DNA from: Nostoc sp. PCC 7120 = FACHB-418
GTDB taxonomy: Bacteria; Cyanobacteriota; Cyanobacteriia; Cyanobacteriales; Nostocaceae
Assembly (NCBI RefSeq): GCF_000009705.1
Contig: NC_003276.1
Span: 210,001-242,000, forward strand
Direction: 5' to 3'
DNA: 32,000 bases
In this document: positions 837-31,354 of the stretch, piece after piece
Layout: the number at the start of each line of letters is the position of its first letter
Position numbering within the stretch: position 1 is the stretch's first letter
Made by a program: the position numbers and the translations under genes
The notes under the pieces: model-generated
Told to the model about the DNA's origin: nothing
Seen by the model: the letters and a program-made list of their open reading frames with translations, nothing else
The model's database searches: none

Positions 837-859
837 ATTGTCAAAGTATTGCTATCTAT

Positions 860-10185: not shown

Positions 10186-11723
10186 GTATAGACAATAATA
10201 AAAATGGTTCAGGAGCGACTTTAGAGGACTTGCTTCATATCGATGATGCTAGTAGTAAAACTAATGGAAATAAAGCGCCAGAGCTAGAAAGTTTGTTAGT
10301 GCCTACTAAGCATACATTTGTCACTTCTCCTTGGTCAAGACTGGCAATAATCGCCGTCCCTTTTGGAGTGGGATTTTTAGCTATATTTTTGATGCTCAAT
10401 GGTATTTTTAATCCCGCACCAGCGCCAAAAATTGCCGAAAAAGAGTCAGAAACAACAACTACTACTGAACAAGCCCAACAAACTGAAGAAAGCGATGGTG
10501 ATGCCCGTGCAAAACTCGCTCTGTCTGAACAAGCCAACGAGTTAGGCAGGGTCAACGACAAAAATAAACAACCAGTACAAGTGTCCAAAACCGAAAAGGT
10601 TGTACCATCCACGCCGCCGTCGCCACGTCCTGCACCTCAACCTGTTCAGACCTCACAACCACGCCTTGTACCTCGAACTGCACCACAACCGATTAGAACC
10701 TACACACCACAAACACGGACTAGTTTTTCTCCTAGACCTTCTATCTCTGCATCTGCTCGGACAGTAACGCCCATAGATCCCATCGAACAACTTAACAAAC
10801 TTCGCACCATCGGGTCTTACGGCAAAATCGCTTATGGCGAAACTAGCACTAATGACCATTCTTCATTAGACCCAGCACAAAATTTACCTAATCAACCAGA
10901 TGAGCCAACTGATTTCAATAATGTCAGCAACAATCCTGTCCTTGAAACCACACCGTCCCCTTCACCGGACTCTATTGAAAAGATCCGCCCCCGGTGGCAA
11001 GCCCAACCTCAAGCTAAGTCGGATAAATATTTAGACCAGGAAAGCCAAATCATTCAGGGAAAACAAACTCGCTACCTCACCGTTGGTACTTTTGCTAGTG
11101 GTGTTCTTGTTACACCCTTAGTTCAAGCCACAGTTAATAGCTCAGTCCAGCAACAAACACCAACCCCTGATACTAGGTCGGTCGTTAGATTAACTCAAGA
11201 TTTACGCGATAACTATGGGCAGGTGGCAATACAGACGGGAACTTTATTAGCGGTAGAACTAGTTTCGGTTGACGGCGGTAGTGTAGCGATCGCTCATGTT
11301 CGGGCGATTATCAAAGATAATACCGAGTACCCTATTTCGACTGGTGCGATATCTGTGACTGGAGAAGGTGGCAGACCTTTAATCGCCAATAAACTTCAAG
11401 ACAGGGGTGGCGAGATTGCCCGTAATGACTTGTTCGGTGGTGCTGTATCTGCATTGGGAAAAGTCGGAGAGGTGATTAATCAACCGGATAATGAAGAAGA
11501 AATTGAGGATGAATTTACGGGCAGGATTCGACGGCGCAGCAGTGGCAATCGTCGCAATATTACTGGTGCATTACTCGAAGGGTTTTTTGGTCAAGTTAGC
11601 CAGAACGTCAGCCAACGCAATCAACGTGCTACCCAAGAAATTAATTCTCGCCCAAATGCTTGGTATATCGGGGCGGGTACTAAAGTGACCATTACAGTTA
11701 ATCGCTCATTGGAGTTGCCATGA
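10182..11723 (+). CDS. VirB10/TrbI-like T4SS protein
   Basis: N-terminal TM segment (LAIIAVPFGVGFLAIFLML), a long Pro-rich linker (PSTPPSPRPAPQPVQTSQPRLVPRTAPQP) and a C-terminal domain ending GAGTKVTITVNRSLELP. ATGA overlap with the upstream gene. Confidence 0.65.
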   Translation: MSIDNNKNGSGATLEDLLHIDDASSKTNGNKAPELESLLVPTKHTFVTSPWSRLAIIAVPFGVGFLAIFLMLNGIFNPAPAPKIAEKESETTTTTEQAQQTEESDGDARAKLALSEQANELGRVNDKNKQPVQVSKTEKVVPSTPPSPRPAPQPVQTSQPRLVPRTAPQPIRTYTPQTRTSFSPRPSISASARTVTPIDPIEQLNKLRTIGSYGKIAYGETSTNDHSSLDPAQNLPNQPDEPTDFNNVSNNPVLETTPSPSPDSIEKIRPRWQAQPQAKSDKYLDQESQIIQGKQTRYLTVGTFASGVLVTPLVQATVNSSVQQQTPTPDTRSVVRLTQDLRDNYGQVAIQTGTLLAVELVSVDGGSVAIAHVRAIIKDNTEYPISTGAISVTGEGGRPLIANKLQDRGGEIARNDLFGGAVSALGKVGEVINQPDNEEEIEDEFTGRIRRRSSGNRRNITGALLEGFFGQVSQNVSQRNQRATQEINSRPNAWYIGAGTKVTITVNRSLELP

Positions 11724-13655: not shown

Positions 13656-15425
13656 ATGAGCCAGTCTTTTAAAACAAATAGTGCTAAAAATCAGCAATTT
13701 AGTTTTGAGCAATTGCAAAATCCTGATAATGCAATTGGCAAGTACACTCACCACTTATTTACCCCCAATGGTTTAACAGTTCTATCCTTGCTCGGCGCTT
13801 ATATTCTCATGAGGGTATTTTTTGGCGACTCTAACAAGAAGAAGATTGCTACTTCTTATTGGGGTGGGGCCAAGGAAACGACGGCGGCTAAGAAAAAGGC
13901 GAAGAAACAAATCGCCAATCCTCAATGTGATAGTGCGGCACTTTACATTGGTAAGCATCAGGATAAAGGCGATGGCACTACTTTCTATATCCCTGATGTG
14001 CAACGGGGTACGGCTGTCATCGGCGCTCCAGGTAGTGGTAAAACATTCTCTGCCATCAACCCGATGATTTACTCGGCTATTGATCAGGGGTTTCCATGTA
14101 TAGTTTATGACTTTAAGTATCCGTCACAAGCGAGAGTTGCTGCTTATGCCAAGTACAAGGGCTATGATGTGCATATCTTTGCACCCGGATTTCCTGAATC
14201 TGAAGTTTGCAATCCTTTAGATTTCCTCAAAGACAGTAGTGATGCTGAAACTGCCCGACAAATTTCAACTGTGATCAATAAGAATTTTCGACTTTTGGGC
14301 AATTCAACTGAAGATGGGTTCTTTGGCCCTTCAGGGGATCAGCTGACTCAAGCAATACTGATGTTAGCTAAAGAGTTCGGTCAATTTGCAGATGTTATGA
14401 CTTGCGCCGCGATACTTTCAAGCGAACACATGGTCAAACGCCTCATGGCTGCTTCTCTCAATCCTTGGGTAAAAATTGCCTTTGGACAACTGTTCAGTTC
14501 TGCTGCATCTGAAAAGACTGTTGCCGGGATTGTCGCTACTGCCAGTATTATGTTTACCCGATTCATGGCGAAAAACACATTAGGCTGCTTTATCGGCAAG
14601 ACAACTTTACCTCTAGAAATTAAAGGTAAGCAAATGATTATCTTTGGGTTGGATAGAGAACGTCGGGATGCTGTAGGGCCTCTCATGACTTCAATCTTAC
14701 ACATGACCATCGCCCGTAACATTGCCAAAAAACGAAAAGACCCACTCATCGTTGCACTGGACGAATTACCCTCAATTTATTTACCTGACTTATATCGGTG
14801 GCTCAACGAATCCCGTTCTGAGGGCTTCTGTGGTATTATCGGCTTCCAAAATATGGGTCAGCTTGAGAAGAATTATGGTAAAGAAGTTGCCAAGGCTATC
14901 CTTGGTGCTTGCAGTTCTAAATTCATTTTTAATCCTGGTGAAAATGAATCAGCGCAATTATTCTCTAGCTTTTTGGGTGATGAAGAAATTAAGTATAAAC
15001 AGAAAAGCCGTTCTAGTGGTAGTAAAAATAATAGCACCTCTATTAGTGACCAAGAAAAAACTAGAAGGCTTTTTGAATCGGCGCAATTTCTCAAACTTAT
15101 TGCTGGTAAATGTGTTTTCATTAATCCGGCATACGCTAATAAAAATGAGGGTTCTGTTCCACTGCTAAAGACTATTAAGATATCTGTGCCTCTCAAAAAT
15201 ATTGATAAATATAATCAACTTAAATGGGTGAGAATCGTTAGTTTAGCAGCTAGGAAGAGTACGCAGAAATTTCCTTCTCAGCAAGATTTAGCTTTACGGA
15301 TGAATCTTGTTGAATCTCGCTTCCCCATTCCCGAAAACCCTCAAGCTATTTCTCCTAATCCTGCTCTGACAGCAAAAGATGTTCATGGCATGGTCAACAC
15401 AGTTCATCCTGATAGTGGGTTGTAA
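13656..15425 (+). CDS. virD4: Type IV coupling protein (VirD4/TraG family)
   Basis: N-terminal TM segment, Walker A GAPGSGKT (nt 14022-14045), Walker B-like IVALDELPS, and GFQNMGQLEKNYGKE, which is typical of the TraG/VirD4 Q..QL...YG motif. Confidence 0.88.
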   Translation: MSQSFKTNSAKNQQFSFEQLQNPDNAIGKYTHHLFTPNGLTVLSLLGAYILMRVFFGDSNKKKIATSYWGGAKETTAAKKKAKKQIANPQCDSAALYIGKHQDKGDGTTFYIPDVQRGTAVIGAPGSGKTFSAINPMIYSAIDQGFPCIVYDFKYPSQARVAAYAKYKGYDVHIFAPGFPESEVCNPLDFLKDSSDAETARQISTVINKNFRLLGNSTEDGFFGPSGDQLTQAILMLAKEFGQFADVMTCAAILSSEHMVKRLMAASLNPWVKIAFGQLFSSAASEKTVAGIVATASIMFTRFMAKNTLGCFIGKTTLPLEIKGKQMIIFGLDRERRDAVGPLMTSILHMTIARNIAKKRKDPLIVALDELPSIYLPDLYRWLNESRSEGFCGIIGFQNMGQLEKNYGKEVAKAILGACSSKFIFNPGENESAQLFSSFLGDEEIKYKQKSRSSGSKNNSTSISDQEKTRRLFESAQFLKLIAGKCVFINPAYANKNEGSVPLLKTIKISVPLKNIDKYNQLKWVRIVSLAARKSTQKFPSQQDLALRMNLVESRFPIPENPQAISPNPALTAKDVHGMVNTVHPDSGL

Positions 15426-15430: not shown

Positions 15431-15922
15431 ATGAAAATGACTATTGAAGAATTAAAGATTGATAATTTTGATGTGATTGAAATATTATCCCAAAACCATG
15501 TTTTAGCAAATGGGAGCTTTATTGATATTAATCTGCCTCCTTTGAAAATTATTCAAGAATTTCATACTTTATCTGAAGCTCGACCAAAAATTAAAAATTT
15601 GGGCATCTATACTCTCATCAGTCTAAAAAATGTTTATATTCACCTGAATCAAGAATCTTGCTGGAAAATTGTTAGTCAATATATTTATGGTATTGGTTGG
15701 CATGATTTACAATATATTTGCTTTTTAGATATTCAAAATAGCAATATCAATATACATATTATTTTTAATCGTGTTACACCAGAAGGTAAGCTCATCGACA
15801 TTAAATGCGTCGGGGCTAACTGGCAGCAATATGAGATCCTGCGTCAATCTTGTTCTCTTGTCATCGATAACCCTGTTCATAACAAATATTTGCAAAGACG
15901 ATTTTGTAACTGTTGTCCTTAA
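15431..15922 (+). CDS. Small relaxase-fold (MobA/VirD2-like) protein with degenerate catalytic motifs
   Basis: IYTLISL ... WHDLQYICFLDIQNSNINIHIIFNRVTPEGK (nt 15743-15790 for NINIH..GK) parallels relaxase motifs II-III (h.i.Sf ... HtDtd..H.HivinRv.p.tGk). Only one of the three His is retained, there is no Tyr in the first 59 aa, and the protein is only 163 aa. Confidence 0.45.
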   Translation: MKMTIEELKIDNFDVIEILSQNHVLANGSFIDINLPPLKIIQEFHTLSEARPKIKNLGIYTLISLKNVYIHLNQESCWKIVSQYIYGIGWHDLQYICFLDIQNSNINIHIIFNRVTPEGKLIDIKCVGANWQQYEILRQSCSLVIDNPVHNKYLQRRFCNCCP

Positions 15923-15924: not shown

Positions 15925-15991
15925 CAGTTATCAGTTATCAGTGAACAGTGACCAGTTACGAGTTCTGCTCACTGGTCACTGTTCACTGTTA
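15925..15991. repeat. STRR-like heptamer array forming a perfect 18-bp hairpin
   Basis: CAGTTAT CAGTTAT CAGTGAA CAGTGAC CAGTTAC (15925-15959). The inverted units ACTGGTC ACTGTTC ACTGTTA lie at 15971-15991. The stem is 15939-15956 paired with 15971-15988, with a 14-nt loop. Confidence 0.85.
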
Positions 15992-16045
15992 AATCTACAA
16001 TTGCTTGACCCTTCAACCTTTTACCATGCCTAAACCTTAATAAAT

Positions 16046-19000
16046 ATGTTTGATGAAAGACATTTGCAACTAACTTCTGCTTACGCTTATAGTAGTAAGT
16101 ATTTTATCCGTACTGTCATTTATCCTTTAGCCAAATATATTGATAAATATCTTCAGCAAAAAGCTGAAGATTCTATCAATAAAAAGTTATATTGGGAGAC
16201 TGGTAAACAAACTTATGCTATGAGTCAAGATGGCAATGGTGGCTGGAAATGGGAAAAGTATGATCCAACAGCTAACAAGTTTGTATCTCCACCTATGGAC
16301 GAACAGGGACATACCGCTTCAACATTTGCGGAAGCTGTATCTCACGACCTAAATAAAACTGCTTCATCCTCCACTGTGATAGATAACAATACAACTGATT
16401 CTATTACTCAACCGATAAAAGCTCAAACTGAAGAAATCAATTCTCTTGCCAAATCTTCAGGTCTAAAAATTCAAACTGACAATCAAACCTTTGTTACCTA
16501 TCTCAAAACTAATGGCAAAATTGGCTTTTCACTAATTGATGAGCAAACTAACAAGATAGTTGCCGACCAAGAGTTTATTACCCAACTGCAAATAGATGTT
16601 AATAAATATTTATCCGAATGTTTTCAAACATTAGCAATTAATCCAGAAACCTTAAACGAAGATATTTATAATTCTTTAAAAGATTGTTTAACTAGCTTTT
16701 TATCACCCCAGACACCAACTATTGCCAAAAAAGACAATCAAATTGAAAATAGCGAGGTGAACCAATTAAAAAAAGACATTACTCAAGATATTCCCCAGTC
16801 CCCCGAACATATAGATCCACCGCATTGGCAAGAACTAGTAGTCGGTAGTGCGATCGCTCCTGGCATTGCCTCCATGAATTTTGAATCTTTGCACTTTAAT
16901 CAGGCAAGAGGAGTACATGAAGCGTGGGATTTATTGATGACCAGCGACAAAATACCACGTACAAATACGGGTAGAGTCTCTGGAGGAATATTAAAAGCAT
17001 ATTCCTATTTAGATAATACAGATGGCTGGTGGTGTAATGCTGGCATAGATCCCAGACATTTTCAAAATTTAACCCCTGGTGAAACTGCCAACACTAAAGA
17101 ATGGGGGTGTTATAAACCAGATAAGCCAAGACCGAAAACCGAGAAAAAAGATGGGTTAAGTCTAGTGGTTCCGGGTAAATTCACCAAATATGAACATCCA
17201 CTAGGCACTGAAAAAAGTATTTTTTTGTTAGATGTCCCAGACAAGATTGCCCAAAATATTTACTCAAAGGCTGGAGTAAACCCCACAGATAGCGAGCGCA
17301 CAAGTGGATTTTGGTATTGCGTATGGAAACATAATATTCCTGTCACAATTACTGAGGGTGCAAAGAAAGCGGCTAGTCTGTTAAGCCAAGGTCATGCTGC
17401 CATTGGGTTAGCGGGAATTAACGGCGGCTACTATAAAACTAAGAAACTGGAAAATCCCATTGACAATGAAATTAAACCCAATGTTACTGAATCCGATGCT
17501 GTAATTGAATTACTGGAAATTGAGTCCGACGAAGTTGAGGTGGTTGATGAAAATCAAGCAGACAACGCTCAACCTCAAGGTCATCCTACTCACTTTTTGC
17601 ATCCTGAGTTAGCAGTTTTTGCCACAAAGGGGCGAGACTTCAAAATCTGCTTTGACTTTGACACTAAACCTGAAACCAAAAGAAATGTTGATGCTGCCAC
17701 CTTACGTACTGGACAATTACTAGAGGCGACTGGTGGCAAGGTGAGTGTCATTTCTCTACCAGGGCCAGATAAAGGTGTAGATGATTTTATTGTCGAGAGA
17801 GGGCGTGAAGCTTTTGACCAATTGCTTGCCCAATCCTTACCCTTAGAACAATGGAATGATAAGTGCCATCTAGAATTACGCTCAACTATCAAGCTCAAAG
17901 ATGGCACAACCAAGACCGTAGGGGATAAAAATCAGACTGTGGCAATCTCACAGGATAATGTCGCCCTCCAAACACCAATTAACCAATCTCCGCAAGAAAA
18001 TTTAATTGCTCAAATACTTTCGGAGCCTGTTGATCTACCAGCACAACAAAATAAATCTCCTGATGAAAGTCCCAAAATACCTGCATCTGAATTAAATATT
18101 TCGCCATGTAATTTTCAAATTGAAACTTCTTCACCGTCTGCCGAATCTAGTCAATTACAACATCAATCTACCCAGAAAAATACTCATCCTTCATCACTAG
18201 CTCAATCAAAACAACAGCAATCTAACAACAATGCTGCCCCTCACTCTCAACAACAGCAATCTCCACCATCTAATACTACAAATATGCACTCCTCTTCAAC
18301 CAATTCCACAACCCAAAACCAACAAATTCCTCAGCAACAAGAAACTGATGATAAGCGAAGTTGGTTTCCTTGGAAGAGAAAACCAATTATGGAAACTCCT
18401 CTTCCAGAAATTCCTCATTGGGCTAAAACACAGGACGTTACTCTTTATAAACAAAACTTCCAACGACGAAAACTCCACCATCAAGAGAATCAAGCGATCG
18501 CAACTGTAGCTGTGGCGCTCGTCAAGAAATACGGTGTCAAAAACAACGAATCGGGCAAAGAGCTAACTTATGTTGCTGATGCTTTCGTTATTCAAAAAAA
18601 AGGGGAAGATTACACTATTTCCCGTCGCCACGATGGTAAGGAGTTGATGAGCTTCATGGCGGATCGTTGGGGTGGAGTGAACAGAGTCAATCTAGGTCAA
18701 GACTTTAATACCAAAAATTACCCCATTAATATCCTACCTATTGAAAGACAAGAATTTTTATTAGTTGCTGACCACCTCAAAGGGGGTAAAGAATTACCAT
18801 CACTTGATGATGACCCACGCAAGCTTGCTTCTGTCTTGAGTTCGGTTTCACCTAGCGGCACACACAATATTTTAGAAAATTTTAAGCAATCCCAACTGTT
18901 GCAAATCATGATGGGAACTATCCGCAATTTTGAGAAAGACGACTTAACTTTAGCTAATTACCGCATTCTTTTTCGGCAAGGCACAGGCGGAAAATCTACA

Positions 19001-19729
19001 CTACAGTTATTCAAAGCTGAACAAAATGGTCTGATTACAAGGGAAGCTGTTCGGTTTGAATTTGAGCGTACTCCAACTGGTATGACTCATCAAGTTAAAA
19101 AAATGGCCATCAATGAAGCTGACTTGGAAAAGTTAAGTTTGCTAGCACAGAAACTACATATTAATTACAAAGCTTTGTTTGGCGACCCCAATACTAGCCG
19201 TGACATTGATTTGCCTATTCACCCTGCCATTAAGAGTCAATTAGATAAATTAACTCCCCCTCAACCTCAAGATCATCCCTCTCCCACCTCTGCATCAGTT
19301 GATTCTTTAATATCAACCAAGCAAGAGAGCAGGGGGAGAGGAGAAGCAGGGGAAGAAATAAGAGCAGGGGGGGATTTTACTAACATTTCCTCCCCAGCCT
19401 CCCCTGCTTCCCCAGCCTCCCCTGATGCGGATCAGTCTTTGTCGGATTTGCTCTCCAAACTAGAAAAGACTGGTAAACTTACTATTGGCGAACAACGTCA
19501 GATTTACCATGAACTACTTATCAAAAGTCAGCTTCAACAAGAAAATAATGGTACAACTGATATTTCCCTTCCTCCCATCAACATAGTTCTTGACGATTTA
19601 ATTAAACAGCGTCAGCTTCTTATTAACGATACTTATTCTGCCAAAGTTGAAGTTGTTTCCCAACAATCTCCACAACAACACACTCCACAACAATCTGTAG
19701 CGACTAATTCACCAGAATTAGAATTTTAA
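16046..19729 (+). CDS. Large DUF3854/Toprim-domain protein (primase-like) with low-complexity linker and unknown C-terminal domains
   Basis: aa 258-600 are paralogous to the N-terminal domain of the 27692-31354 protein: ELVVGSAIAPGI / ELAVGSAIHPSL; TEGAKKAA / CEGEKKAA; FDFD / FDYE; LPGPDKGVDDF / LPGPEKGVDDF. No P-loop seen. Confidence 0.8.
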   Translation: MFDERHLQLTSAYAYSSKYFIRTVIYPLAKYIDKYLQQKAEDSINKKLYWETGKQTYAMSQDGNGGWKWEKYDPTANKFVSPPMDEQGHTASTFAEAVSHDLNKTASSSTVIDNNTTDSITQPIKAQTEEINSLAKSSGLKIQTDNQTFVTYLKTNGKIGFSLIDEQTNKIVADQEFITQLQIDVNKYLSECFQTLAINPETLNEDIYNSLKDCLTSFLSPQTPTIAKKDNQIENSEVNQLKKDITQDIPQSPEHIDPPHWQELVVGSAIAPGIASMNFESLHFNQARGVHEAWDLLMTSDKIPRTNTGRVSGGILKAYSYLDNTDGWWCNAGIDPRHFQNLTPGETANTKEWGCYKPDKPRPKTEKKDGLSLVVPGKFTKYEHPLGTEKSIFLLDVPDKIAQNIYSKAGVNPTDSERTSGFWYCVWKHNIPVTITEGAKKAASLLSQGHAAIGLAGINGGYYKTKKLENPIDNEIKPNVTESDAVIELLEIESDEVEVVDENQADNAQPQGHPTHFLHPELAVFATKGRDFKICFDFDTKPETKRNVDAATLRTGQLLEATGGKVSVISLPGPDKGVDDFIVERGREAFDQLLAQSLPLEQWNDKCHLELRSTIKLKDGTTKTVGDKNQTVAISQDNVALQTPINQSPQENLIAQILSEPVDLPAQQNKSPDESPKIPASELNISPCNFQIETSSPSAESSQLQHQSTQKNTHPSSLAQSKQQQSNNNAAPHSQQQQSPPSNTTNMHSSSTNSTTQNQQIPQQQETDDKRSWFPWKRKPIMETPLPEIPHWAKTQDVTLYKQNFQRRKLHHQENQAIATVAVALVKKYGVKNNESGKELTYVADAFVIQKKGEDYTISRRHDGKELMSFMADRWGGVNRVNLGQDFNTKNYPINILPIERQEFLLVADHLKGGKELPSLDDDPRKLASVLSSVSPSGTHNILENFKQSQLLQIMMGTIRNFEKDDLTLANYRILFRQGTGGKSTLQLFKAEQNGLITREAVRFEFERTPTGMTHQVKKMAINEADLEKLSLLAQKLHINYKALFGDPNTSRDIDLPIHPAIKSQLDKLTPPQPQDHPSPTSASVDSLISTKQESRGRGEAGEEIRAGGDFTNISSPASPASPASPDADQSLSDLLSKLEKTGKLTIGEQRQIYHELLIKSQLQQENNGTTDISLPPINIVLDDLIKQRQLLINDTYSAKVEVVSQQSPQQHTPQQSVATNSPELEF
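19329..19424 (+). mobile_element. Small palindromic dispersed-repeat (SDR/MITE-like) insertion, in-frame within the CDS
   Basis: Imperfect hairpin, for example GAAGCAGGGGA 19343-19353 paired with TCCCCTGCTTC 19400-19410. Homologous to 27926-28009 in the same orientation relative to the host gene. Encodes GEAGEEIRAGGDFTNISSPASPASPASP. Confidence 0.6.
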
Positions 19730-19736: not shown

Positions 19737-20537
19737 TTGTTCACCACATTTATGCCTAGCTTAGTATCGTCTTCAATCACTACCATCAACCGCGACAGTG
19801 GACTTTCTGACAACCAACTTGCCTATAGACTAGCGCTGATGATGGAAAAATATCCCCCCTCGCCGTCAATAACCCCAACCCCCGCACTGGACACCACAGA
19901 GCGCGAGAGTATTATGGCCGAGATGAGAAATACTCTATCTCTTACGCAAAATGCTCAAAGTGCTGAAGATTACAGGCAAAGTCTTAAGGAAAAATACCTT
20001 AAAGAGTACGCCCAAAAATTTGGCTTAAATAAATCTGAACAAACAACTGATATATCCAAATCCACAAGAGTTGAAAATTTAATAGCCCAGAAGAAAAAGA
20101 CTTTCTTACAGGAGATATTACAGTCTAAAGAACGCAAGTTACCTTTTGTTGATCACCAAACATCTACACCAAAGCAAAGCGAAAATCATGAGGTTGCTAA
20201 AAAATCTCTTATTCCCGCATTGATGAATATTCTCATGACCAAAGGACAAGACACTATTGGCGGCCGCATTTATGAGGGGATCTCTTATCGACTAAATCTC
20301 ATGATGAGAGAAGGGATGCAACGTCTGACTGTTTGGCGTAAAAGTGATAATCAAACGGCTTTTAGCGCTTATAAAGTTGATAGCAAGGAAGAATACAACG
20401 TTGTACACAATAACCTTTCACCGCAAGAAACACAAAAGCTGATCAATTTCGATATGAGACAGCAGCAGCAGCAACAAAAGTCACCACCACAGCAACAACA
20501 AAACGACCACTCTTCTGACGGCCCAGAGTTGGAATAA
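19737..20537 (+). CDS. Hypothetical protein; its C-terminal tail is paralogous to that of the upstream 1227-aa protein
   Basis: 266 aa, starting at TTG 19737 or ATG 19752. It ends QQQQKSPPQQQQNDHSSDGPELE, whereas the upstream protein ends QQSPQQHTPQQSVATNSPELEF. Confidence 0.55.
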   Translation: MFTTFMPSLVSSSITTINRDSGLSDNQLAYRLALMMEKYPPSPSITPTPALDTTERESIMAEMRNTLSLTQNAQSAEDYRQSLKEKYLKEYAQKFGLNKSEQTTDISKSTRVENLIAQKKKTFLQEILQSKERKLPFVDHQTSTPKQSENHEVAKKSLIPALMNILMTKGQDTIGGRIYEGISYRLNLMMREGMQRLTVWRKSDNQTAFSAYKVDSKEEYNVVHNNLSPQETQKLINFDMRQQQQQQKSPPQQQQNDHSSDGPELE

Positions 20538-20538: not shown

Positions 20539-20781
20539 CTACTGAAAATAACCTATAAACAACCCCAGGAAATACACACTTATCAAGACATAACGCTTTG
20601 TTACACGCTCAAATTGTGACCAGGGCGAGATAATGACAGCTAATACTATATAAAACAGAGCTTGTAGAAAATCATTGTGTCCCAGTTTGATGATTGCTGC
20701 TATCATCAAAGCCACAAAAATTAGAAACTCCACTGCTGTTTCAATCCTGTCCCACAGTTTCACATCATATAGGTAACGCAT
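20539..20781 (-). CDS. Small (80 aa) multi-TM membrane protein, translationally coupled to the histidine kinase
   Basis: Hydrophobic helices VEFLIFVALMIAAII, ALFYIVLAVIISPW and VLISVYFLGLFIGYF. Its start overlaps the kinase 3' end by 17 nt. Confidence 0.5.
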   Translation of the reverse strand: MRYLYDVKLWDRIETAVEFLIFVALMIAAIIKLGHNDFLQALFYIVLAVIISPWSQFERVTKRYVLISVYFLGLFIGYFQ

Positions 20782-21526
20782 CTTGTCTCCTGGGTGATTT
20801 AGGGGGCATCATACCATCAACCCCATATATCCCGTCATCTTTGTAAGGAAATATGATGGTGAATTTCGTTCCTTGTTTGACTACCGAATCTACTCTCATA
20901 CTCAATCCATGAGCATGAGCCACGCATAAGGCGATGTACAGTCCAAGCCCCATCCCTGATTGATGTAATAAATTGCTATTTGGCGATGGCGTTCCGCCCA
21001 CCGTAGGTGATCGCCATAGTGGAATAAATATATTTGATAGTTGGTCTGTAGCAATTCCTATACCCGTGTCTTCAATTTCGATCACTAAATCATCTTCTTG
21101 ATTAAGCAGTCTTAAAAAGATATCTCCTCGTCTAGTGTACTTAATAGCATTTGTCACTATATTACATAGCATTCTGTCAATACTTATACTGTCACCCCGT
21201 ACTTGCGTTCCATGCTTGTATGATGATTGCGTTTCATAGTGCATTTTCAACGAATGATACTGCGCTATTGGCTGGAATAAAGAAGAAGTTTTTTGTAAAA
21301 AACTCAACATATCAAATTGGGCTAACGCGACTGGTTTCACTTCCCCAGAGACTTTGTTAGCTTCAAGCAAATTCATACCCCGGTCATTAGTATCTCGTAA
21401 GGCCAAGAGAAATGGTCTGATTTCTTCTAGAGAGTATCCATAAGCACCATCAATTAACTGATTTGCAATCAACGATATTCCTTTCAACGAATTTGACACA
21501 TCGTGCAGTAAAGCTAATATATCCAA
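20765..21526 (-). CDS. Sensor-less histidine kinase (DHp + HATPase_c only), possibly N-terminally truncated
   Basis: H-box LLHDVSNSL with the His at residue 8, N-box NIVTNAIKYT, G1 IEDTGIGI, G2 GMGLGLYIA. TTG start with an in-frame TAA 9 nt upstream. No TM or sensor domain. Confidence 0.8.
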   Translation of the reverse strand: MDILALLHDVSNSLKGISLIANQLIDGAYGYSLEEIRPFLLALRDTNDRGMNLLEANKVSGEVKPVALAQFDMLSFLQKTSSLFQPIAQYHSLKMHYETQSSYKHGTQVRGDSISIDRMLCNIVTNAIKYTRRGDIFLRLLNQEDDLVIEIEDTGIGIATDQLSNIFIPLWRSPTVGGTPSPNSNLLHQSGMGLGLYIALCVAHAHGLSMRVDSVVKQGTKFTIIFPYKDDGIYGVDGMMPPKSPRRQDALPI

Positions 21527-21596
21527 CTGTTTGCTTAAAACTTCCTATTGCATAACTATACTACCAGCGAAAGATTGTTATTTTTGCTACTTTTAT

Positions 21597-21616
21597 GACT
21601 GAATGCTAATTCAGTC
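21597..21616. promoter_or_regulatory. 8-4-8 palindrome GACTGAAT-gcta-ATTCAGTC in the kinase/regulator divergent intergenic region
   Basis: Read directly. Location and dyad symmetry suit a dimeric HTH regulator site, but no functional evidence exists. Confidence 0.25.
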
Positions 21617-21825
21617 TAGAAATTTTAGAATCTTTTTATTTTACCCATCAAAAAAATTCATCCAATCCAGTTTTAATCCTAAAAACCTTTCTTCTTCTAT
21701 TTACCAAGAATTTTTCTTACTTGCTTATATTTTATATTTACATACACAAAAAGTAAAATACTTTACCTCAATAACCATGTTATAAATATTTAAGTATCTT
21801 ACAGTCGAAGTAATTAAAACCCTAT

Positions 21826-22482
21826 ATGATTCGATTAGTAATTATTGAGGATGAGGAATTAATCCGACTAGGAATAACTACTGCTATCAATCAACAACCA
21901 GATATGCAAATGGTAGGAATTGCTCGGACTGGTCATCAAGGCATTAAACTCGTTGAGGAATTAGCTCCTGATGTGGTTTTAGTCGATATTGGCTTGCCTG
22001 ACATCTCTGGGGTTGAAGTCATTAAGCAAATCAAAGCCAATACAAGCAACATTAAGATTGTTGTTCTTTCTTCTTATTATGCTCAAAGTATTGTCCAGTC
22101 TGCTTTAAATGTGGGGGCTGATTCTTACATTCTTAAGAAGAATAATGTTCCTCTGATCTTAGAGTCCATTAAAACTACCTTCTACGATTGCAAGTCTTTT
22201 TTAGACCCTGATATTAGCCGACATAATTTTTTTTTCCAACAGAAAATTAAGGGGAAGACTTACCAAGATCATCTTAGTAACACTGAGATGCAAATTATTT
22301 CTTTGATGGCGGCTGGTTTTTCTAATAAGCATATTGCCGAGCAGTTATTCATTACTCAAAGCACTGTCAAAGGGCATATAAACAAGATTTTTGCTAAGTT
22401 AGATGTTGCCGATCGCGTCAATGCTCTGATTGTAGCCAGTAAACTTGGCTACATCGAACAGGATTACCTCAAGGTCAGTTAA
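21826..22482 (+). CDS. NarL/FixJ-family response regulator (REC + LuxR-type HTH)
   Basis: Receiver motifs IIEDEE, VVLVDIGLPD (phospho-acceptor Asp), VVLSS and ILKK. The C-terminal LSNTEMQIISLMAAGFSNKHIAEQLFITQSTVKGHINKIFAKL is a LuxR/GerE HTH. Confidence 0.9.
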   Translation: MIRLVIIEDEELIRLGITTAINQQPDMQMVGIARTGHQGIKLVEELAPDVVLVDIGLPDISGVEVIKQIKANTSNIKIVVLSSYYAQSIVQSALNVGADSYILKKNNVPLILESIKTTFYDCKSFLDPDISRHNFFFQQKIKGKTYQDHLSNTEMQIISLMAAGFSNKHIAEQLFITQSTVKGHINKIFAKLDVADRVNALIVASKLGYIEQDYLKVS

Positions 22483-27691: not shown

Positions 27692-30600
27692 TTACGCTTG
27701 TCCAAACTCCATCGGCAAAACATCCTCACTTAACAGCGAGTAAAATTCCGACACAGACGTTTCGAGCGATCGCACCTCAGCCTCAGCGATCGCTTCCCAT
27801 TCCAGCACGACCAGCCAACGCAAGTCAGAACCCCAACGTTGGAGAATGCCTTTGATTGCTTCTAGTCCATGACAAATGCTAGAACGGAGCATTTCTACAC
27901 AGTGAAGTATGGTAGTTCGGTCGGAAAGAGAAGCAGGGGAGGAATGGTTAGTAAATTCTCCCCCAGCTTCACCTGCGGCATCTCTTCCCCTGCGGCATCT
28001 CTCCCCCGGCTCCCATTCCGTAGTTCCCCCCTCCTGATAAGGGGAGTTTCCTATACCATTTGTGGGGGGGGTGAATACCACAGCTTCACCGTAGTTAGTC
28101 TGGTACTGTGCTTGATTTTCGGCTCTTTTTGCTTGTCTATGGGCGATGACTTGTAATGCAAAGTCTAGTTCTTTCTTGGACAGTGAGAATAATTTCACCT
28201 GTTGACCCCGTGGCCCCTGCTTGCGATAAGTCAGCTTCAGTCCCAGTTGATCCAATAAAATCCCCAACAGCCAGATTGGTTGACAGTTGGGGGGAACAGT
28301 GAAACCTAAAATTGCTTTAATGTGAGCAGCGCAATCAACAGCGATCGCCGACATATTTAATAGATGTGTGTCGTCCGCCCGAACTTCATCACCGGCGACG
28401 AGTCGAGTCAGAATGTGGTGTAGTCCCAGGTTAAAACGTGCCAACCACCGAGCAGAATAATTGCCCCAATCCATACAGAATGGCAGTTTATCTCGTTCGG
28501 CTCTATCTTTATTAGTGACAAGATCAGGTGGTATAGGATACTGTTTACCGTTATCATCAATGGTTGACTCTGGTGGTGAAAGGATGGCTTCAAGTGCAGC
28601 GATCGCTCCTATCAATCGACCACCGTTATCTTGTTCAACCAACTCCGGTGTTACTTCCATCCCGTAAGAATCATGAATGCGGAATTTCTCACACTCATAG
28701 ATTTCTTCGGGTGAGAGGTAGTCTTTAGTTTGACGAGCGCGGTATTCACTTTTGGAAATGTTGTTGGCCTTGGCGACGGCATGATGATGAGCAGTATCGA
28801 GAGCGTCCGCCGCAGTTTTGAGTAATTCCCAAGTTGGGGCATCAAGCTCGTCACCCACTGGTACAATTTGATTGCCCATCTGCTTCAACAATTCGCGTAA
28901 GTCGGTGCGTAAGTTATTAATCGACTGATGACGAGCAGATTTGATTTTGCAGTAAGCCTCAAGCGCCCAGTCTTTTTCAGCCCCGCGCTTACCTGTTTCT
29001 CGGTCAATCCGCAGTAAGAAAGCCGTAATCTCGTTAGTTTGTAGCAGCCGTTCTTTAATCTTAGTCGGGTTAGTGTCGAGGTATCCAAATGGGGGTTTAG
29101 GGGCCACCCAAACGTGAAGCGGGACTTTTGGGCGATACCTCCAAAGCTGTTGAGCGCATTCGGTGGCTGTCTGTGAAACTCCGTGAAATACACCAAACAC
29201 TGCATCAAAGTGATACTGCGAGATGTCAACCCCAGTCCCCAGGCTGGGAGAAGTGAGGAGGATATCTATATTCTTGATGGCGTTGGTGATGTCTTTGATG
29301 AAGGCTACATTTTCCTCGCTGCCTGAATTATCAGAATGAATTGACCAAACTCGTAAATTGCTTCGGCTTTGAGGTGGTGGAGAATTAGATATTGGGTTAA
29401 TGTCAACCCCAGGACTCGCATCGGACTGTACCACAGTTTGTAAAGTCAATAGTGACTTTTCAAGTTTCTTAATAAATCGTTTAGAGTCAGAAACTACCAT
29501 CACTTTCTGCCCTGTCATTACTGCCGCAGATATTTTGGCCACCAGGGCTGAGGAATTATCGCCTTCGTACCAATAGATAGTGCGATCGCCGTTTTGCCAT
29601 TGGTTTTCCACAATATATGGTTGTTCACCAACAGGGCGCATGGCGCGAAAAAAGTCGATGGTAATATCATCTAAATGCGCGTCAGCAATGATGACTAAAG
29701 GGCAATTGTAGACAATATACTGTAGAACCTCTAAAATTTCTGCACGATGTTCTTTGCAAGTCTTACTTAGTAATAGGTGCGTGAGATACTGGCAAGCCTC
29801 ATCGATGAAGACGCATCCATAGGTTAGGGCTTCGGTATTTAATTTATAAAGGCTATCAATGGTAATGGACAGGGCAATGGCCTTAGCCATACCAACATGA
29901 CCCACTTCAGAATACATGAGAGTTTTCAAGCGCTGGGCTAAATTCTTGAGTAAATTGACCCGATGCCCATTGTTGAGAAATCGTTGCTCAGGGTAAATCT
30001 CGCGCCACCAAGCCATCAATTCAGTTTTGCCTGTTCCCATACCGCTTTTCAAACCAACTAATCCTGATTTTGGTAACAGTAATCTCCGGTTTTTACCCAC
30101 AGGAGCGTTAGTTTCGGTTTGGTTCTGTGTTGGGGATGGAGGTAATATTTTGGGTTTTGTATGGGGAGTTTGGGGGAAAAGTTCTAGTAATAGCTGCTGT
30201 AAACCATCCTCATCAGGAGTAATATTGTTTTGTTTAAGCTGGATAAGACTTTCAACTGGCGGCGGTTGTGCATTAGGTTCATCCTCAACTACAAGTGCTT
30301 GAGTTAAGTAGCGTTCATTCACAATCAAATCTGGTTTGTACTTCCTTAGCCCCCGATGCTTGACTAAAAATGATTGCTGGTAGTCATTGAGCGATAGTGC
30401 ATCCAGAGCGATCGCCGTTAGCAGTGCATTGGCATCTTCACCTCGCGCCACCACGAAATCATCCACACCTTTCTCTGGCCCTGGCAATTGAATTATCTCG
30501 CACACACATCCTGCCGCTTCAATCGCTTTGCCCGTGCGAACTGTTGCCTGATAAACTGACCAACGGGTTTTTAGCTTTGTCTCGTAGTCGAACAAAATTT

Positions 30601-31354
30601 GAAACTTCCGCCCCGGCTGCGCTAGTGGTAGCAAGTCTGGGTGCAGTCTCTCGTCAAAATCCCTACGTCCTACCCGTCCGTTCCAAATACCGGGGAGTGC
30701 GATCGCTACAAATCCTAAACTGAGCAAACAGGCTGCTTTCTTTTCACCTTCGCAAAGTATGACGGGAATTTGCGGATTAGCGATTACCCACTCCCAGAAT
30801 ATCAGTGCGTGGAGTTTATCTTGTAATCGCCGGGAGAGGGATGAGTGGTATTGCTTGATGTTGTACCTTCGTGCTACCAACCCCCAAATGTAATCCGGTA
30901 CATCAAAGTATGTTACTCGGTTGGCAACTTTCGGCGGCGATTCATATTTAACTGGCTTGCCTTTTTCCCAATCAATGCGGGGATTGGAGGGTTTGAATCG
31001 TCCCCACTCCATCGGGAGCCAGTTGCGCTGCGGGTCTAGCCCGGATATCCACATCCCCCCGGCTAGTAGGTGCAGATATGCTTTTAAGAATCCGTCTGTC
31101 ACTCGACCTGCGTTTTTACGCGGAATCTCAGGAGAGATGAACAGGTATTCGTAAATCGCCTCTCCCTCAATATGCTGGAAATTACGCTCAATCAACGATG
31201 GATGAATGGCGCTGCCCACCGCTAACTCATGATACTCGGCGGCGGTGAGATTGTTGGGGTATTCAATTTCTTTTGACAGCAATTGATCCCCAATACCCGA
31301 CTGTGGGTATTGGTTATTTTTCACGGTAGATTCCTCCGATAACTTGGTTTTCAA
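27692..31354 (-). CDS. Plasmid replication protein, DUF3854/Toprim primase-like domain + P-loop helicase (CyRepA-like)
   Basis: Toprim block at aa 40-315 (CEGEKKAA, FDYE, GVDDF). Walker A GMGTGKTE (nt 30020-30043), Walker B VFIDEAC, then IIADAHLDD. A likelier start is GTG at 31324, preceded by GGAGG (31333-31337) with 8-nt spacing. Confidence 0.82.
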   Translation of the reverse strand: MKTKLSEESTVKNNQYPQSGIGDQLLSKEIEYPNNLTAAEYHELAVGSAIHPSLIERNFQHIEGEAIYEYLFISPEIPRKNAGRVTDGFLKAYLHLLAGGMWISGLDPQRNWLPMEWGRFKPSNPRIDWEKGKPVKYESPPKVANRVTYFDVPDYIWGLVARRYNIKQYHSSLSRRLQDKLHALIFWEWVIANPQIPVILCEGEKKAACLLSLGFVAIALPGIWNGRVGRRDFDERLHPDLLPLAQPGRKFQILFDYETKLKTRWSVYQATVRTGKAIEAAGCVCEIIQLPGPEKGVDDFVVARGEDANALLTAIALDALSLNDYQQSFLVKHRGLRKYKPDLIVNERYLTQALVVEDEPNAQPPPVESLIQLKQNNITPDEDGLQQLLLELFPQTPHTKPKILPPSPTQNQTETNAPVGKNRRLLLPKSGLVGLKSGMGTGKTELMAWWREIYPEQRFLNNGHRVNLLKNLAQRLKTLMYSEVGHVGMAKAIALSITIDSLYKLNTEALTYGCVFIDEACQYLTHLLLSKTCKEHRAEILEVLQYIVYNCPLVIIADAHLDDITIDFFRAMRPVGEQPYIVENQWQNGDRTIYWYEGDNSSALVAKISAAVMTGQKVMVVSDSKRFIKKLEKSLLTLQTVVQSDASPGVDINPISNSPPPQSRSNLRVWSIHSDNSGSEENVAFIKDITNAIKNIDILLTSPSLGTGVDISQYHFDAVFGVFHGVSQTATECAQQLWRYRPKVPLHVWVAPKPPFGYLDTNPTKIKERLLQTNEITAFLLRIDRETGKRGAEKDWALEAYCKIKSARHQSINNLRTDLRELLKQMGNQIVPVGDELDAPTWELLKTAADALDTAHHHAVAKANNISKSEYRARQTKDYLSPEEIYECEKFRIHDSYGMEVTPELVEQDNGGRLIGAIAALEAILSPPESTIDDNGKQYPIPPDLVTNKDRAERDKLPFCMDWGNYSARWLARFNLGLHHILTRLVAGDEVRADDTHLLNMSAIAVDCAAHIKAILGFTVPPNCQPIWLLGILLDQLGLKLTYRKQGPRGQQVKLFSLSKKELDFALQVIAHRQAKRAENQAQYQTNYGEAVVFTPPTNGIGNSPYQEGGTTEWEPGERCRRGRDAAGEAGGEFTNHSSPASLSDRTTILHCVEMLRSSICHGLEAIKGILQRWGSDLRWLVVLEWEAIAEAEVRSLETSVSEFYSLLSEDVLPMEFGQA
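27926..28009 (-). mobile_element. Second copy of the small palindromic dispersed repeat, in-frame within the rep gene
   Basis: GAAGCAGGGGAGGAATGGTTAGTAAATTCTCCCCC (plus strand) matches the reverse complement of the 19329-19424 element (GAAGCAGGGGAGG..AGGAAATGTTAGTAAAATCCCCC). Encodes GRDAAGEAGGEFTNHSSPASLS. Confidence 0.6.

What the first reader, a model, noticed from the sequence alone, without database searches (positions are those of the whole stretch)
16046..19729. Helicase-less DUF3854/Toprim giant protein attached to the transfer operon: candidate transferred primase or unconventional DNA-processing enzyme
The protein shares the Toprim-like block (E in TEGAKKA, FDFD, GVDDF) with the replication protein at 27692-31354 but lacks any P-loop. 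Its Toprim domain carries a strongly acidic insertion of about 55 aa (aa 463-518, nt 17432-17599, ...ESDAVIELLEIESDEVEVVDENQADNAQ...) that the paralog lacks. A Q/N/S-rich, prion-like linker follows (aa 694-768, nt 18125-18349), and then about 450 aa of unknown domain. Its position right after the T4CP, the pseudo-relaxase and a hairpin matches where conjugative systems place relaxases or transferred primases. Toprim domains catalyse Mg-dependent phosphoryl transfer in primases, topoisomerases and OLD nucleases. A nicking role is therefore chemically plausible but unproven.
Basis: inference. Interest (0 to 1): 0.7.

Follow-up and report, generated by a model that had tools for sequence, protein, structure and literature searches.

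The report
Primase riding a conjugation coupling-protein partner
This 1,227-residue protein of a Nostoc/Anabaena plasmid is a cyanobacteria-only partner of the DNA-transfer coupling protein that has acquired an intact DnaG-type primase, so it most likely travels with the DNA and primes its copying in the recipient, as known conjugative primases do, and is not an unconventional nicking enzyme.

Summary
The Toprim block belongs to a full DnaG-type primase catalytic domain (aa ~255-625). Its confident AlphaFold core has DnaG primases as its top seven PDB matches. E437, D537, D/E539, D579 and D580 never vary in 119 relatives. There is no helicase and no detected zinc finger.

The acidic insertion and the Q/S-rich linker are disordered and lineage-specific. 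The C-terminal "unknown 450 aa" contains a ~260-aa domain with no PDB match, so it is not a relaxase fold. A three-helix module and a disordered tail ending ELEF follow.

Three results reframe the finding:
- The non-primase backbone is a rare cyanobacterial family. It was encoded directly after the coupling-protein (T4CP) gene, or after one small ORF, in every locus examined, often without any primase.
- The nearest relatives of the primase module (~50% identity) sit inside a TrwC-type relaxase-helicase of sister plasmids.
- The plasmid's real relaxase (MobV, just upstream of the window) ends ELEL, like this protein.

Best reading: an exported conjugative primase, a functional analogue of Sog/TraC1. 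The nicking idea is not supported. No experiment exists.

The parts
16046..19729 (+). Whole ORF, 1,227 aa. It is 100% identical to a 'DUF3854 domain-containing protein' of an Anabaena sp. FACHB-709 plasmid.
16046..16270 (+). N-terminal backbone module (aa 1-75): MFDERHLQL..GGWKWEK, a long helix plus a small sheet. It is also present in primase-less relatives.
   Evidence: (pLDDT 50-73)
16271..16807 (+). Variable, mostly disordered linker (aa 76-254).
   Evidence: 18% mean identity
16808..17920 (+). DnaG-type primase catalytic domain (aa 255-625; Pfam DUF3854 covers its Toprim half). Key residues: K381-Y382-E383, E437 (nt 17354-17356), D537/D539 (17654-17662), D579-D580 (17780-17785).
17444..17581 (+). 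Acidic insertion in a Toprim loop (aa 467-512). It is predicted disordered and found in 6 of 120 relatives.
17921..18412 (+). Low-complexity Q/S/T/N/P linker (aa 626-789), not conserved in the family.
18413..19195 (+). Backbone 'C-domain' (aa 790-1050): two helix + five-strand-meander units around a helical bundle. It includes the invariant ERQEF motif. No known fold matches it.
19196..19429 (+). Disordered segment (aa 1051-1128). It starts with the family-wide LPIHP motif and contains an in-frame hairpin repeat (19326-19424).
19430..19642 (+). Three-helix module (aa 1129-1199), GKLTIGEQRQIY...ISLPPI. Relatives carry one to three copies.
19643..19729 (+). Disordered polar tail ending SPELEF plus the stop codon. 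This is the family-wide hydrophobic-E/S-L/F C-terminus shared with MobV relaxases.
13656..15425 (+). Type IV coupling protein (VirD4/TraG-like). This is the gene the backbone family was found next to in every locus examined.
15431..15922 (+). 163-aa relaxase-like ORF with a degenerate histidine triad.
15935..15992 (.). Hairpin with 22-nt arms built from CAGTnAn heptamer repeats. It has no T-run.
27692..31354 (-). CyRepA1 replication protein, which carries the more distant paralogue of the primase domain fused to a helicase.

Best explanation
The ORF encodes a modular protein of the cyanobacterial (MPF_C-type) conjugation system. Its backbone consists of an N-terminal module, a ~260-aa C-domain of unknown fold, a three-helix module, and a disordered tail ending hydrophobic-E-L/F. 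This backbone is a cyanobacteria-only family that was encoded directly after the T4CP gene, or after one small ORF, in every locus examined. In Nostocaceae a complete DnaG-type primase catalytic domain (Pfam DUF3854) has been inserted between the N-module and the C-domain.

Most likely mechanism: the protein docks on the coupling protein or secretion machine through its C-terminal part, which ends with the same tail as the plasmid's MobV relaxase. It is then exported with the transferred single strand and synthesises RNA primers for complementary-strand synthesis in the recipient. Sog of IncI1 plasmids and TraC1 of RP4 work this way.

Shown here (from sequence and predicted structure only): the primase fold, the conservation of catalytic residues, the absence of a helicase and of a detected zinc finger, the T4CP synteny, the primase-less relatives, the fusion of the nearest primase relatives to a TrwC relaxase-helicase, and the shared tail.

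Inferred: export, recognition of the tail, and priming in the recipient. The acidic insertion and the Q/S-rich linker are read as disordered, lineage-specific spacers.
For: Fold. The AlphaFold2 model has pLDDT mostly 84-98 over aa 250-460 and 513-610. The top seven Foldseek PDB matches are all DnaG RNA-polymerase domains (2au3, E 1.1e-4; 5vaz, 4edg, 3b39, 5guj, 5w34). Six of the seven have probability 1.00 and the seventh 0.91, over 347-378 aligned columns. T4 gp61 primase comes next. A family profile weakly matches S. aureus DnaG (E 0.068), aligning GVDDF to DnaG motif VI. hhalign places FDFD on the DnaG motif V sequence CYDGD.

Conservation. E437, D537, D/E539, D579, D580 and K381-Y382-E383 do not vary in 117-119 relatives. 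The primase is the best-conserved region, at 57-67% mean identity.

Backbone and synteny. A profile of the C-domain alone finds only 53 representatives among 1.84 billion proteins. Twenty of these were scanned and none has DUF3854 or any other informative Pfam family. The six whose sequences were read include long forms that keep the N-module, the C-domain, the HP motif and the tail. In five independent contexts the gene sits immediately downstream of the T4CP gene: L002, L003-5, L006, L007-8 and T. variabilis plasmid C. The same holds in ten or more Nostoc plasmids. The next genes include a topoisomerase (L003) or a Prim-Pol primase (L006).

Fusion. tblastn of the primase module finds its next-closest relatives (47-51% identity, E about 1e-100 to 1e-110) inside genes annotated MobF relaxase. 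The one checked, from pNPUN01, is TrwC (E 1e-87) + AAA_30 helicase + DUF3854 (E 3e-47). CyRepA1-type copies are only 28-38% identical.

Tail. 99 of 120 family members and 113 of 120 cyanobacterial MobV relaxases end [LIVMFN]-[E/S]-[LFVIM]. The co-resident MobV ends QNNQELEL. Among roughly 260 stop-to-stop ORFs of at least 100 aa in the first nine loci, only family members, MobV and one kinase fit this pattern. In five further loci MobV, a family member and two apparently unrelated ORFs fit it.

Precedent. TOPRIM primases Sog and TraC1 are transferred to recipients (PMC7213743, PMC5512222).
Against: There is no experimental datum for this protein or for any MPF_C system.

The zinc-binding domain that DnaG-type primases use for template recognition was not detected. 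The primase-less relatives show that the backbone's core job is not priming, so the primase could serve a donor-side role.

The MobV relaxase itself carries DUF3991 followed by Toprim-like motifs, which might already supply priming.

The tail match is a short motif, and its reader is unknown. The MobF fusion protein of pNPUN01 ends RFRR rather than ELEL.

Foldseek TM-scores are modest (0.32-0.47 normalised to target) because the query was 640 aa with disordered parts. The sequence-level link to DnaG is weak.

The domain lacks the 'DaN-' signature reported for conjugative Toprim primases (PMC5512222) and does not hit Toprim_2/3/4.
Confidence: 0.55

Rival explanations
1. Donor-side coupling or relaxosome accessory factor. 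The backbone bridges the T4CP and the relaxase-DNA complex, and the primase primes replacement-strand synthesis, or acts locally at the origin of transfer, in the donor. The protein is not exported.
For: The strict adjacency to the T4CP gene and the primase-less relatives show that the backbone has a function independent of priming. The conserved P-x-x-H-P motif and the helical repeats look like interaction modules.
Against: The C-terminal tail is shared with the relaxase, the one protein that is exported in ssDNA conjugation. The nearest primase relatives are fused to a relaxase, which places them in the recipient. Replacement-strand synthesis in donors normally extends the nicked 3' end and needs no primase (general knowledge).
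Confidence: 0.2
2. Exported multi-domain 'polyvalent' establishment protein. Its main role is to protect or coat the incoming strand (ssDNA binding, anti-restriction) through the C-domain, and the primase is a secondary add-on.
For: The large modular architecture with disordered linkers sits in a T4SS operon, as described for polyvalent proteins of conjugative elements that carry DnaG-type or Prim-Pol primases (PMC5512222). The C-domain is basic (net +7) and has tandem helix + beta-meander units. An Mrr-type endonuclease is encoded in the same array.
Against: No ArdC-N, metallopeptidase or other polyvalent-protein domain was detected. The C-domain has no structural match that would indicate DNA binding.
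Confidence: 0.12
3. One reading: the Toprim domain nicks DNA, acting as an unconventional relaxase or site-specific nuclease at the nearby hairpins.
For: Toprim chemistry can cleave DNA in topoisomerases and OLD nucleases. The neighbouring 163-aa relaxase-like ORF has a degenerate histidine triad. A hairpin lies directly upstream.
Against: A complete MobV relaxase (Mob_Pre, E 3e-36 in the pNPUN02 orthologue) heads the same gene array. The fold matches DnaG primases over both subdomains, and matches gyrase/topoisomerase Toprim only weakly. No catalytic-tyrosine domain, OLD ATPase or HUH fold is present. The hairpin is built from heptamer repeats, and no T-run or nick-site evidence was found. 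In pNPUN02 a four-helix-bundle protein gene lies between the 163-aa ORF and the giant gene.
Confidence: 0.04
4. Relic or accessory of replication: a helicase-less copy of the CyRepA replicase primase that serves vegetative plasmid replication, placed next to the transfer genes by chance.
For: It is homologous to the primase half of the co-resident CyRepA1 (E 3e-45). CyRepA proteins support plasmid replication (PMC10079941).
Against: It is only 31% identical to CyRepA1 but about 50% identical to relaxase-fused copies. The synteny with the T4CP gene is conserved across many plasmids. The module is inserted into a T4CP-linked backbone. The catalytic residues and the whole architecture appear to be under strong constraint.
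Confidence: 0.04

Closest known systems
Sog (IncI1: ColIb-P9/R64) and TraC1 (IncP: RP4) transferred conjugative primases
   Same: All are large (>1,000 aa) proteins encoded in transfer operons. They combine a TOPRIM primase with a large non-primase part needed for transport. Sog has the primase N-terminal, as here. Both are exported to recipients (PMC7213743, PMC5512222).
   Different: No sequence relationship was detected. The target hits only DUF3854, not Toprim_2/3/4 or DUF1738. The C-domain profile finds only cyanobacterial proteins. The primase sits in the middle of a backbone that also exists without it. Transfer is untested here.
CyRepA1/CyRepA2 cyanobacterial plasmid replication proteins (DUF3854 + helicase)
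   Same: They share the same primase-type domain family, including the ~170 aa N-terminal to the Pfam DUF3854 region (31% identity, E 3e-45). They occur in the same hosts and even on the same plasmid.
   Different: The target has no helicase, no NF042913 match and no Walker A motif. It carries invariant C330/C355/C425/H429 that CyRepA1 lacks. Its context is the transfer operon, not a replication origin.
Cyanobacterial TrwC-type (MOBF) relaxase-helicase-DUF3854 fusions, e.g. pNPUN01 WP_012412944.1, 2,142 aa
   Same: They hold the closest relatives of the target's primase module outside its own family (about 50% identity) and share the same conserved Cys/His. They are conjugation proteins of sister plasmids.
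   Different: In those proteins the carrier is the relaxase-helicase itself. The target has no relaxase or helicase domain and uses the T4CP-adjacent backbone as carrier. The MobF fusion ends RFRR, not ELEL.
Bacterial DnaG primase RNA-polymerase domain
   Same: The predicted fold matches over both subdomains. The acidic Toprim residues correspond to DnaG motifs IV-VI, and a KY-x-x-P motif is present.
   Different: No CHC2 zinc-binding domain and no DnaB-binding C-terminal domain are present. Sequence similarity is at the detection limit.
MobA-RepB' of RSF1010 (relaxase-primase fusion)
   Same: The logic is the same: a primase is delivered to the recipient attached to an exported conjugation protein (own knowledge; Parker & Meyer 2005 is cited in PMC5512222).
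   Different: As far as I recall, RepB' is not a Toprim primase. There the carrier is the relaxase.

Membership tests
DnaG-type (Toprim) primase catalytic domain | Toprim acidic residues: Glu (motif IV), DxD (motif V) and the acidic pair of motif VI | tested here: met
   E437, D537, D/E539, D579 and D580 are invariant in 118-119 relatives. They align to DnaG motifs V and VI.
DnaG-type (Toprim) primase catalytic domain | Two-subdomain RNA-polymerase-domain fold (N-terminal basic subdomain + Toprim) | tested here: met
   The top seven Foldseek PDB matches are all DnaG RNA-polymerase domains. Six have probability 1.00 and one 0.91, over 347-378 columns, best E 1.1e-4, TM to target 0.32-0.47. The model core has pLDDT mostly 84-98.
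DnaG-type (Toprim) primase catalytic domain | N-terminal CHC2 zinc-binding domain | tested here: not met
   No zinc-finger family appears in Pfam. By my reading of the translation, aa 1-254 contain only two Cys (C192, C214), both in the variable linker.
DnaG-type (Toprim) primase catalytic domain | Primer synthesis on ssDNA | not testable with these tools
   This needs a biochemical assay.
Pfam DUF3854 / CyRepA replication proteins | DUF3854 domain above the gathering score | tested here: met
   134 bits against a cut-off of 23, E 3.8e-39.
Pfam DUF3854 / CyRepA replication proteins | C-terminal helicase region (NCBIfam NF042913 CyRepA1; Walker A) | tested here: not met
   No NCBIfam hit and no Walker A motif.
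Transferred conjugative primases (Sog/TraC1 type) | Primase encoded within a T4SS transfer operon | tested here: met
   The gene lies 620 nt downstream of the T4CP gene on the same strand, and this synteny is conserved.
Transferred conjugative primases (Sog/TraC1 type) | Toprim_2/3/4-type domain with the 'DaN-' signature (PMC5512222) | tested here: not met
   Only DUF3854 is detected. By my reading, the corresponding helix reads GVDDF.
Transferred conjugative primases (Sog/TraC1 type) | Export to the recipient through the T4SS | not testable with these tools
   The evidence is indirect only: the tail shared with MobV relaxases and relaxase-fused relatives.
Transferred conjugative primases (Sog/TraC1 type) | In-frame internal start giving a primase-less isoform (a feature of Sog and TraC, from own knowledge) | tested here: inconclusive
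   Met747 and Met782 exist, but Met782 is not conserved in close relatives. There are no expression data.
Conjugative relaxases (HUH MobA/VirD2, TrwC, MobV) | Relaxase nuclease domain or fold with catalytic Tyr and a metal-binding His cluster | tested here: not met
   No relaxase family appears in Pfam or NCBIfam for the target. The C-terminal model has no PDB match (best E 0.059), and a profile search against PDB sequences is empty.
OLD nucleases / type IA-II topoisomerases | Toprim combined with an ABC-type ATPase (OLD) or with a Topoisom_bac/gyrase domain | tested here: not met
   No such domains are present. Gyrase Toprim matches are weak (E at least 0.07).

The most novel reading that the evidence does not exclude
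Cyanobacterial MPF_C conjugation uses a short C-terminal tail (polar or Q-rich stretch ending hydrophobic-E/S-L-COOH) as its substrate-recognition signal. Both the MobV relaxase and a dedicated, previously unrecognised T4CP-adjacent carrier protein bear this tail. The carrier is a modular delivery vehicle. In Nostocaceae it carries an inserted DnaG-type primase, while in other lineages it is primase-less and sits next to separate primase or topoisomerase genes. This would be a new T4SS substrate class, and it would provide a predictable signal for a transfer system that has never been studied experimentally.
Probability: 0.3. Interest if true: 0.72.

Novelty: new variant of a known kind. Interest (0 to 1): 0.55.

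Why it matters
In the literature searched here, conjugation in cyanobacteria is known from genome surveys rather than experiments, and none of those papers names the partners or substrates of the MPF_C machine (PMC4027160, PMC8600333). This analysis gives three testable entry points:
- a likely exported primase with defined catalytic residues;
- a cyanobacteria-specific protein family tied to the coupling protein;
- a four-residue tail shared with the relaxase that could be the export or docking signal.

If confirmed, the tail and the carrier could be used to deliver proteins or DNA between cyanobacteria. They would also improve mobility prediction for the large Nostoc plasmids that carry natural-product and toxin gene clusters. 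The result further shows one primase module (DUF3854) used in three settings on related plasmids: replication initiator, relaxase fusion and T4CP-partner fusion.

Tried and rejected
- Direct sequence search of the whole protein against PDB gave nothing meaningful.
- A PHROGs scan gave only a weak 'DNA polymerase' family hit (E 8e-4) and added nothing.
- Fold searches of the C-terminal model against PDB and BFVD gave no significant or informative match. A canonical relaxase, ArdC-like or VirE2-like assignment is therefore rejected for lack of evidence.
- The profile of the C-domain against PDB sequences was empty.
- hhalign of the family against single-sequence E. coli DnaG was too weak to count as evidence (probability 1.4%). 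It was used only to see which motifs align.
- I tested whether the downstream 266-aa ORF shares the tail. Its family ends PELD/ELGD/PELE, and 0 of 96 members fit the pattern, so I do not count it.
- I tried to test tail co-variation in systems whose backbone protein ends in Arg. No relaxase lies next to the AAA gene on T. variabilis plasmid C. Only the pNPUN01 anecdote remains: MobF ends RFRR and the T4CP-adjacent 415-aa protein ends NMHR.
- The pNPUN01 415-aa protein matches the C-domain only weakly (E 0.005, probability 7%), so it is not claimed as a member.
- R64 (AP005147) is not in the plasmid collection, so no direct profile comparison with Sog was possible.
- The hairpin at 15935-15992 as a terminator: there is no T-run and the scan did not call it.
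- An internal start for a short isoform: the candidate Met782 is not conserved.

Full report
**What the window is.** The target protein is 100% identical to a 'DUF3854 domain-containing protein' of an Anabaena sp. FACHB-709 plasmid, seen on a 408.6-kb contig. The DNA is 80-89% identical to large Nostoc and Trichormus plasmids. On the + strand lies a transfer operon of the cyanobacterial MPF_C type: VirB4-like ATPase (4524-7343), TrbI/VirB10 (10182-11723) and a VirD4/TraG-type coupling protein (13656-15425). PMC4027160 and PMC8600333 describe this locus type on pCC7120alpha. After the T4CP gene come a 163-aa relaxase-like ORF (15431-15922), a hairpin (15935-15992), the target (16046-19729) and a 266-aa ORF (19737-20537). 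A CyRepA1 replication protein is encoded on the other strand (27692-31354; NF042913, E 2e-101).

**Checking the observation.**
- The ORF is 1,227 aa, and its start is supported by family-wide conservation of Met1 and MFDERHLQL.
- Pfam DUF3854 scores E 3.8e-39, split in two by the insertion.
- E437 in TEGAKKA, FDFD at 536-539 and GVDDF at 577-581 are all there.
- Identity to CyRepA1 is 31% over aa 229-704 (E 3e-45), with one large gap at the insertion.
- There is no Walker A motif and no NTPase family.
- The insertion is acidic: aa 470-513 have net charge -12.
- The linker at aa 694-768 is 24% Q and 23% S.

**The Toprim block is a complete DnaG-type primase domain.** An AlphaFold2 model of aa 1-640, built on 47 aligned sequences, is confident over aa 250-460 and 513-610 (pLDDT mostly 84-98). 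It is unconfident over the insertion at 467-512 (pLDDT < 50). The top seven Foldseek matches in the PDB are all DnaG RNA-polymerase domains: Aquifex 2au3 (E 1.1e-4), then Pseudomonas, S. aureus, E. coli, B. subtilis and M. tuberculosis. Six have probability 1.00 and the seventh 0.91, over 347-378 aligned columns. T4 gp61 primase follows, and gyrase Toprim domains come far behind. TM-scores are modest (0.32-0.47 normalised to target), partly because the query was long and partly disordered. At the sequence level a family profile matches S. aureus DnaG only weakly (E 0.068), but it places GVDDF on DnaG motif VI. hhalign places FDFD on the DnaG motif V sequence CYDGD. Across 120 relatives E437, D537, D/E539, D579, D580 and K381-Y382-E383 never vary. 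The primase is also the best-conserved part of the protein, at 57-67% mean identity. No zinc-binding domain and no helicase are present.

The acidic insertion exists in only 6 of 120 relatives, varies in length among them and is predicted disordered. The Q/S/T/N-rich linker is likewise variable and unconfident. I read both as tolerated disordered spacers.

**The C-terminal 'unknown' part.** A second model (aa 780-1227) shows four pieces:
- a ~260-aa globular domain (aa ~790-1050; block-mean pLDDT mostly 75-92, with dips to about 57-62) made of two helix + five-strand-meander units around a helical bundle;
- a disordered stretch;
- a confident three-helix module (aa ~1129-1199);
- a disordered tail.

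Foldseek finds no significant match for this model in the PDB (best E 0.059) or in BFVD. A profile search of PDB sequences is empty.

**The backbone is a T4CP-linked family that often lacks the primase.** A profile of the C-domain alone, searched against 1.84 billion representative proteins, finds only 53. Twenty of these were scanned and none has a DUF3854 hit. The six whose sequences were read include long forms (844, 888 and 962 aa) that keep the same N-terminal module (MFDxR...YKWEKVD), the C-domain, a P-x-x-H-P motif with helices, and a similar tail. Shorter ones (409-568 aa) keep the C-domain, the motif and the helices. The primase-less forms with organism names come from Calothrix, Rhizonema, Pelatocladus and Coleofasciculus. 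In PLSDB the C-domain occurs on 37 plasmids, all cyanobacterial, and 24 of them are typed conjugative. In every context I could read, the gene lies immediately after the T4CP gene at the end of the T4SS operon, sometimes after one small ORF. These contexts are L002, L003-5, L006, L007-8 and T. variabilis plasmid C. The following gene is a type IA topoisomerase in L003, and a Prim-Pol/PriCT_2 primase lies 600 nt downstream in L006. The conserved unit is therefore 'T4CP + backbone protein'. The DnaG-type primase is a module inserted between the N-module and the C-domain in Nostocaceae.

**Where the primase module came from and what it is used for.** tblastn of aa 255-625 against plasmids finds 191 records. 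All those listed or named in the output are cyanobacterial. After the target's own family, the closest copies (47-51% identity, E about 1e-100 to 1e-110) lie inside genes annotated MobF relaxase. CyRepA1-type replication proteins are only 28-38% identical. The pNPUN01 example is a 2,142-aa protein with TrwC relaxase (E 1e-87), a TraI-like AAA_30 helicase (E 6e-57) and then DUF3854 (E 3e-47). It shares the Cys/His residues that are invariant in the target family but absent from CyRepA1. A relaxase is the protein that is exported with the DNA. A primase fused to it is the arrangement known from RSF1010 MobA-RepB' (own knowledge). This is the strongest indirect argument that this DUF3854 subfamily is a conjugative primase.

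**A real relaxase exists, and it shares the target's C-terminus.** Contigs that carry the window's first gene show, just upstream of the window, a 568-aa MobV relaxase (Mob_Pre + DUF3991). An AAA ATPase follows it, and the C-terminus of that ATPase is window 1-270. This agrees with PMC8600333, which names alr7199 as the relaxase. That MobV ends QNNQELEL, and the target ends NSPELEF. In pNPUN02 the two proteins end HEELEL and NSQELEL. Of 120 relatives of each, 99 (target family) and 113 (MobV) end [LIVMFN]-[E/S]-[LFVIM]; the exceptions in the target family include visibly truncated entries. Among roughly 260 stop-to-stop ORFs of at least 100 aa in the first nine loci, only family members, MobV and one kinase fit the pattern. 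In five further loci MobV, a family member and two apparently unrelated ORFs fit it. In the model the tail is disordered. I infer a common reader, most simply the T4CP, but nothing here tests that.

**Best explanation and rivals.** I judge an exported conjugative primase on a T4CP-partner carrier most likely (about 0.55). The rivals are:
- a donor-side coupling accessory whose primase acts locally (0.2);
- a 'polyvalent' establishment protein whose main role lies in the C-domain (0.12);
- a Toprim nickase (0.04);
- a replication relic (0.04).

Several points count against my reading. There are no experiments. The zinc finger is missing. MobV itself carries DUF3991 followed by Toprim-like motifs (LCESPIDAIS...AVDD, by reading). 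The primase-less relatives prove the backbone has another core role. The MobF fusion ends RFRR rather than ELEL.

**Comparison with known systems.** By function the protein resembles Sog and TraC1, which are large transfer-operon proteins with a TOPRIM primase and a transport part and which are exported (PMC7213743, PMC5512222). It is not a member of their sequence families. Only DUF3854 is detected, the 'DaN-' signature reported for conjugative Toprim primases is absent, and the carrier domains are unrelated. It belongs to the DUF3854 family together with CyRepA, but it lacks the helicase that defines those replication proteins. The literature held here says nothing on this protein or on MPF_C accessory factors.

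**Verdict.** The protein is a new variant of a known kind, a conjugative primase. It stands out for its optional-insert architecture, its cyanobacteria-specific carrier tied to the coupling protein, and a candidate export tail shared with the relaxase.

Noticed in passing
window 19326-19424 (+) and about 27925-28010 (-): A small G/C-rich hairpin repeat (AGAGCAGGGGGAGA...TCCCCAGCCTCCCCTG) is inserted in frame in the target, where it encodes RGRGEAGEEIRAGGDFTNISSPASPASPASP. A related copy lies in frame in CyRepA1 (RGRDAAGEAGGEFTNHSSPAS). Relatives carry similar G/E/R-rich inserts at other positions. These look like the miniature dispersed repeats of Nostoc genomes.
   Followed up: partly
window 15935-15992: The hairpin between the 163-aa ORF and the target is built of tandem CAGTnAn heptamers, like the short tandem repeats of heterocystous cyanobacteria. 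It is unique in the window and has no T-run. In pNPUN02 a four-helix-bundle (23S rRNA IVS-type) gene lies between the 163-aa ORF and the giant gene.
   Followed up: partly
window 15431-15922 (+): The 163-aa ORF hits the MobA/VirD2 relaxase domain (E 4e-9). Where the three-histidine motif should be, it reads CFLDIQNSNINIHIIFNRV, which keeps one His of three. The same 163-aa protein is conserved in pNPUN02. It may be a relaxase-derived DNA-binding accessory protein.
   Followed up: partly
window 19737-20537 (+): The downstream 266-aa ORF belongs to a family of 96 cluster representatives; all that carry an organism name are cyanobacteria, nearly all Nostocales. It has no Pfam domain and has a Q-rich C-terminus ending PELD, ELGD or PELE. 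This resembles the ELEL tail of the target and MobV but is not the same.
   Followed up: partly
L010 6565-9998 (just upstream of window position 1); window 1-270: A MobV relaxase (Mob_Pre + DUF3991, then Toprim-like motifs LCESPIDAIS and AVDD) is followed by a 539-aa AAA ATPase whose C-terminus is the start of the window. A classic-type AAA ATPase (Pfam PF00004) next to the relaxase could be a reader or unfoldase for the shared C-terminal tail. This is pure speculation.
   Followed up: partly
window 276-2780 (+): A DUF192 protein, an Mrr-type restriction endonuclease and a tyrosine integrase lie between the relaxase module and the T4SS genes. The DUF192 gene keeps this position in other plasmids.
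   Followed up: no
target aa 330, 355, 384, 425, 429 (window about 17033-17332): C330, C355, C425, H384 and H429 are nearly invariant in the target family and in the MobF-fused copies but are absent from CyRepA1. They could form a metal site that compensates for the missing zinc finger. I could not inspect the model coordinates.
   Followed up: no
L012 6157-12585 (pNPUN01): This is a 2,142-aa TrwC relaxase + TraI-like helicase + DUF3854 primase, followed by about 800 aa of highly regular ~60-residue helical repeats (…TLPQLIEQLS…). It is an unusually long relaxase-helicase-primase fusion.
   Followed up: partly
window 20765-22482: A histidine kinase (-) and a LuxR-type response regulator (+) lie directly after the transfer genes, and this synteny is conserved in most related Nostoc plasmids. 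They may regulate transfer.
   Followed up: no
target aa 1057-1064 and relatives: A P-x-x-H-P-x-I/L motif, usually followed by W and a helix, occurs one to three times after the C-domain in nine of the ten family members checked, including primase-less ones. It looks like a short interaction motif.
   Followed up: partly
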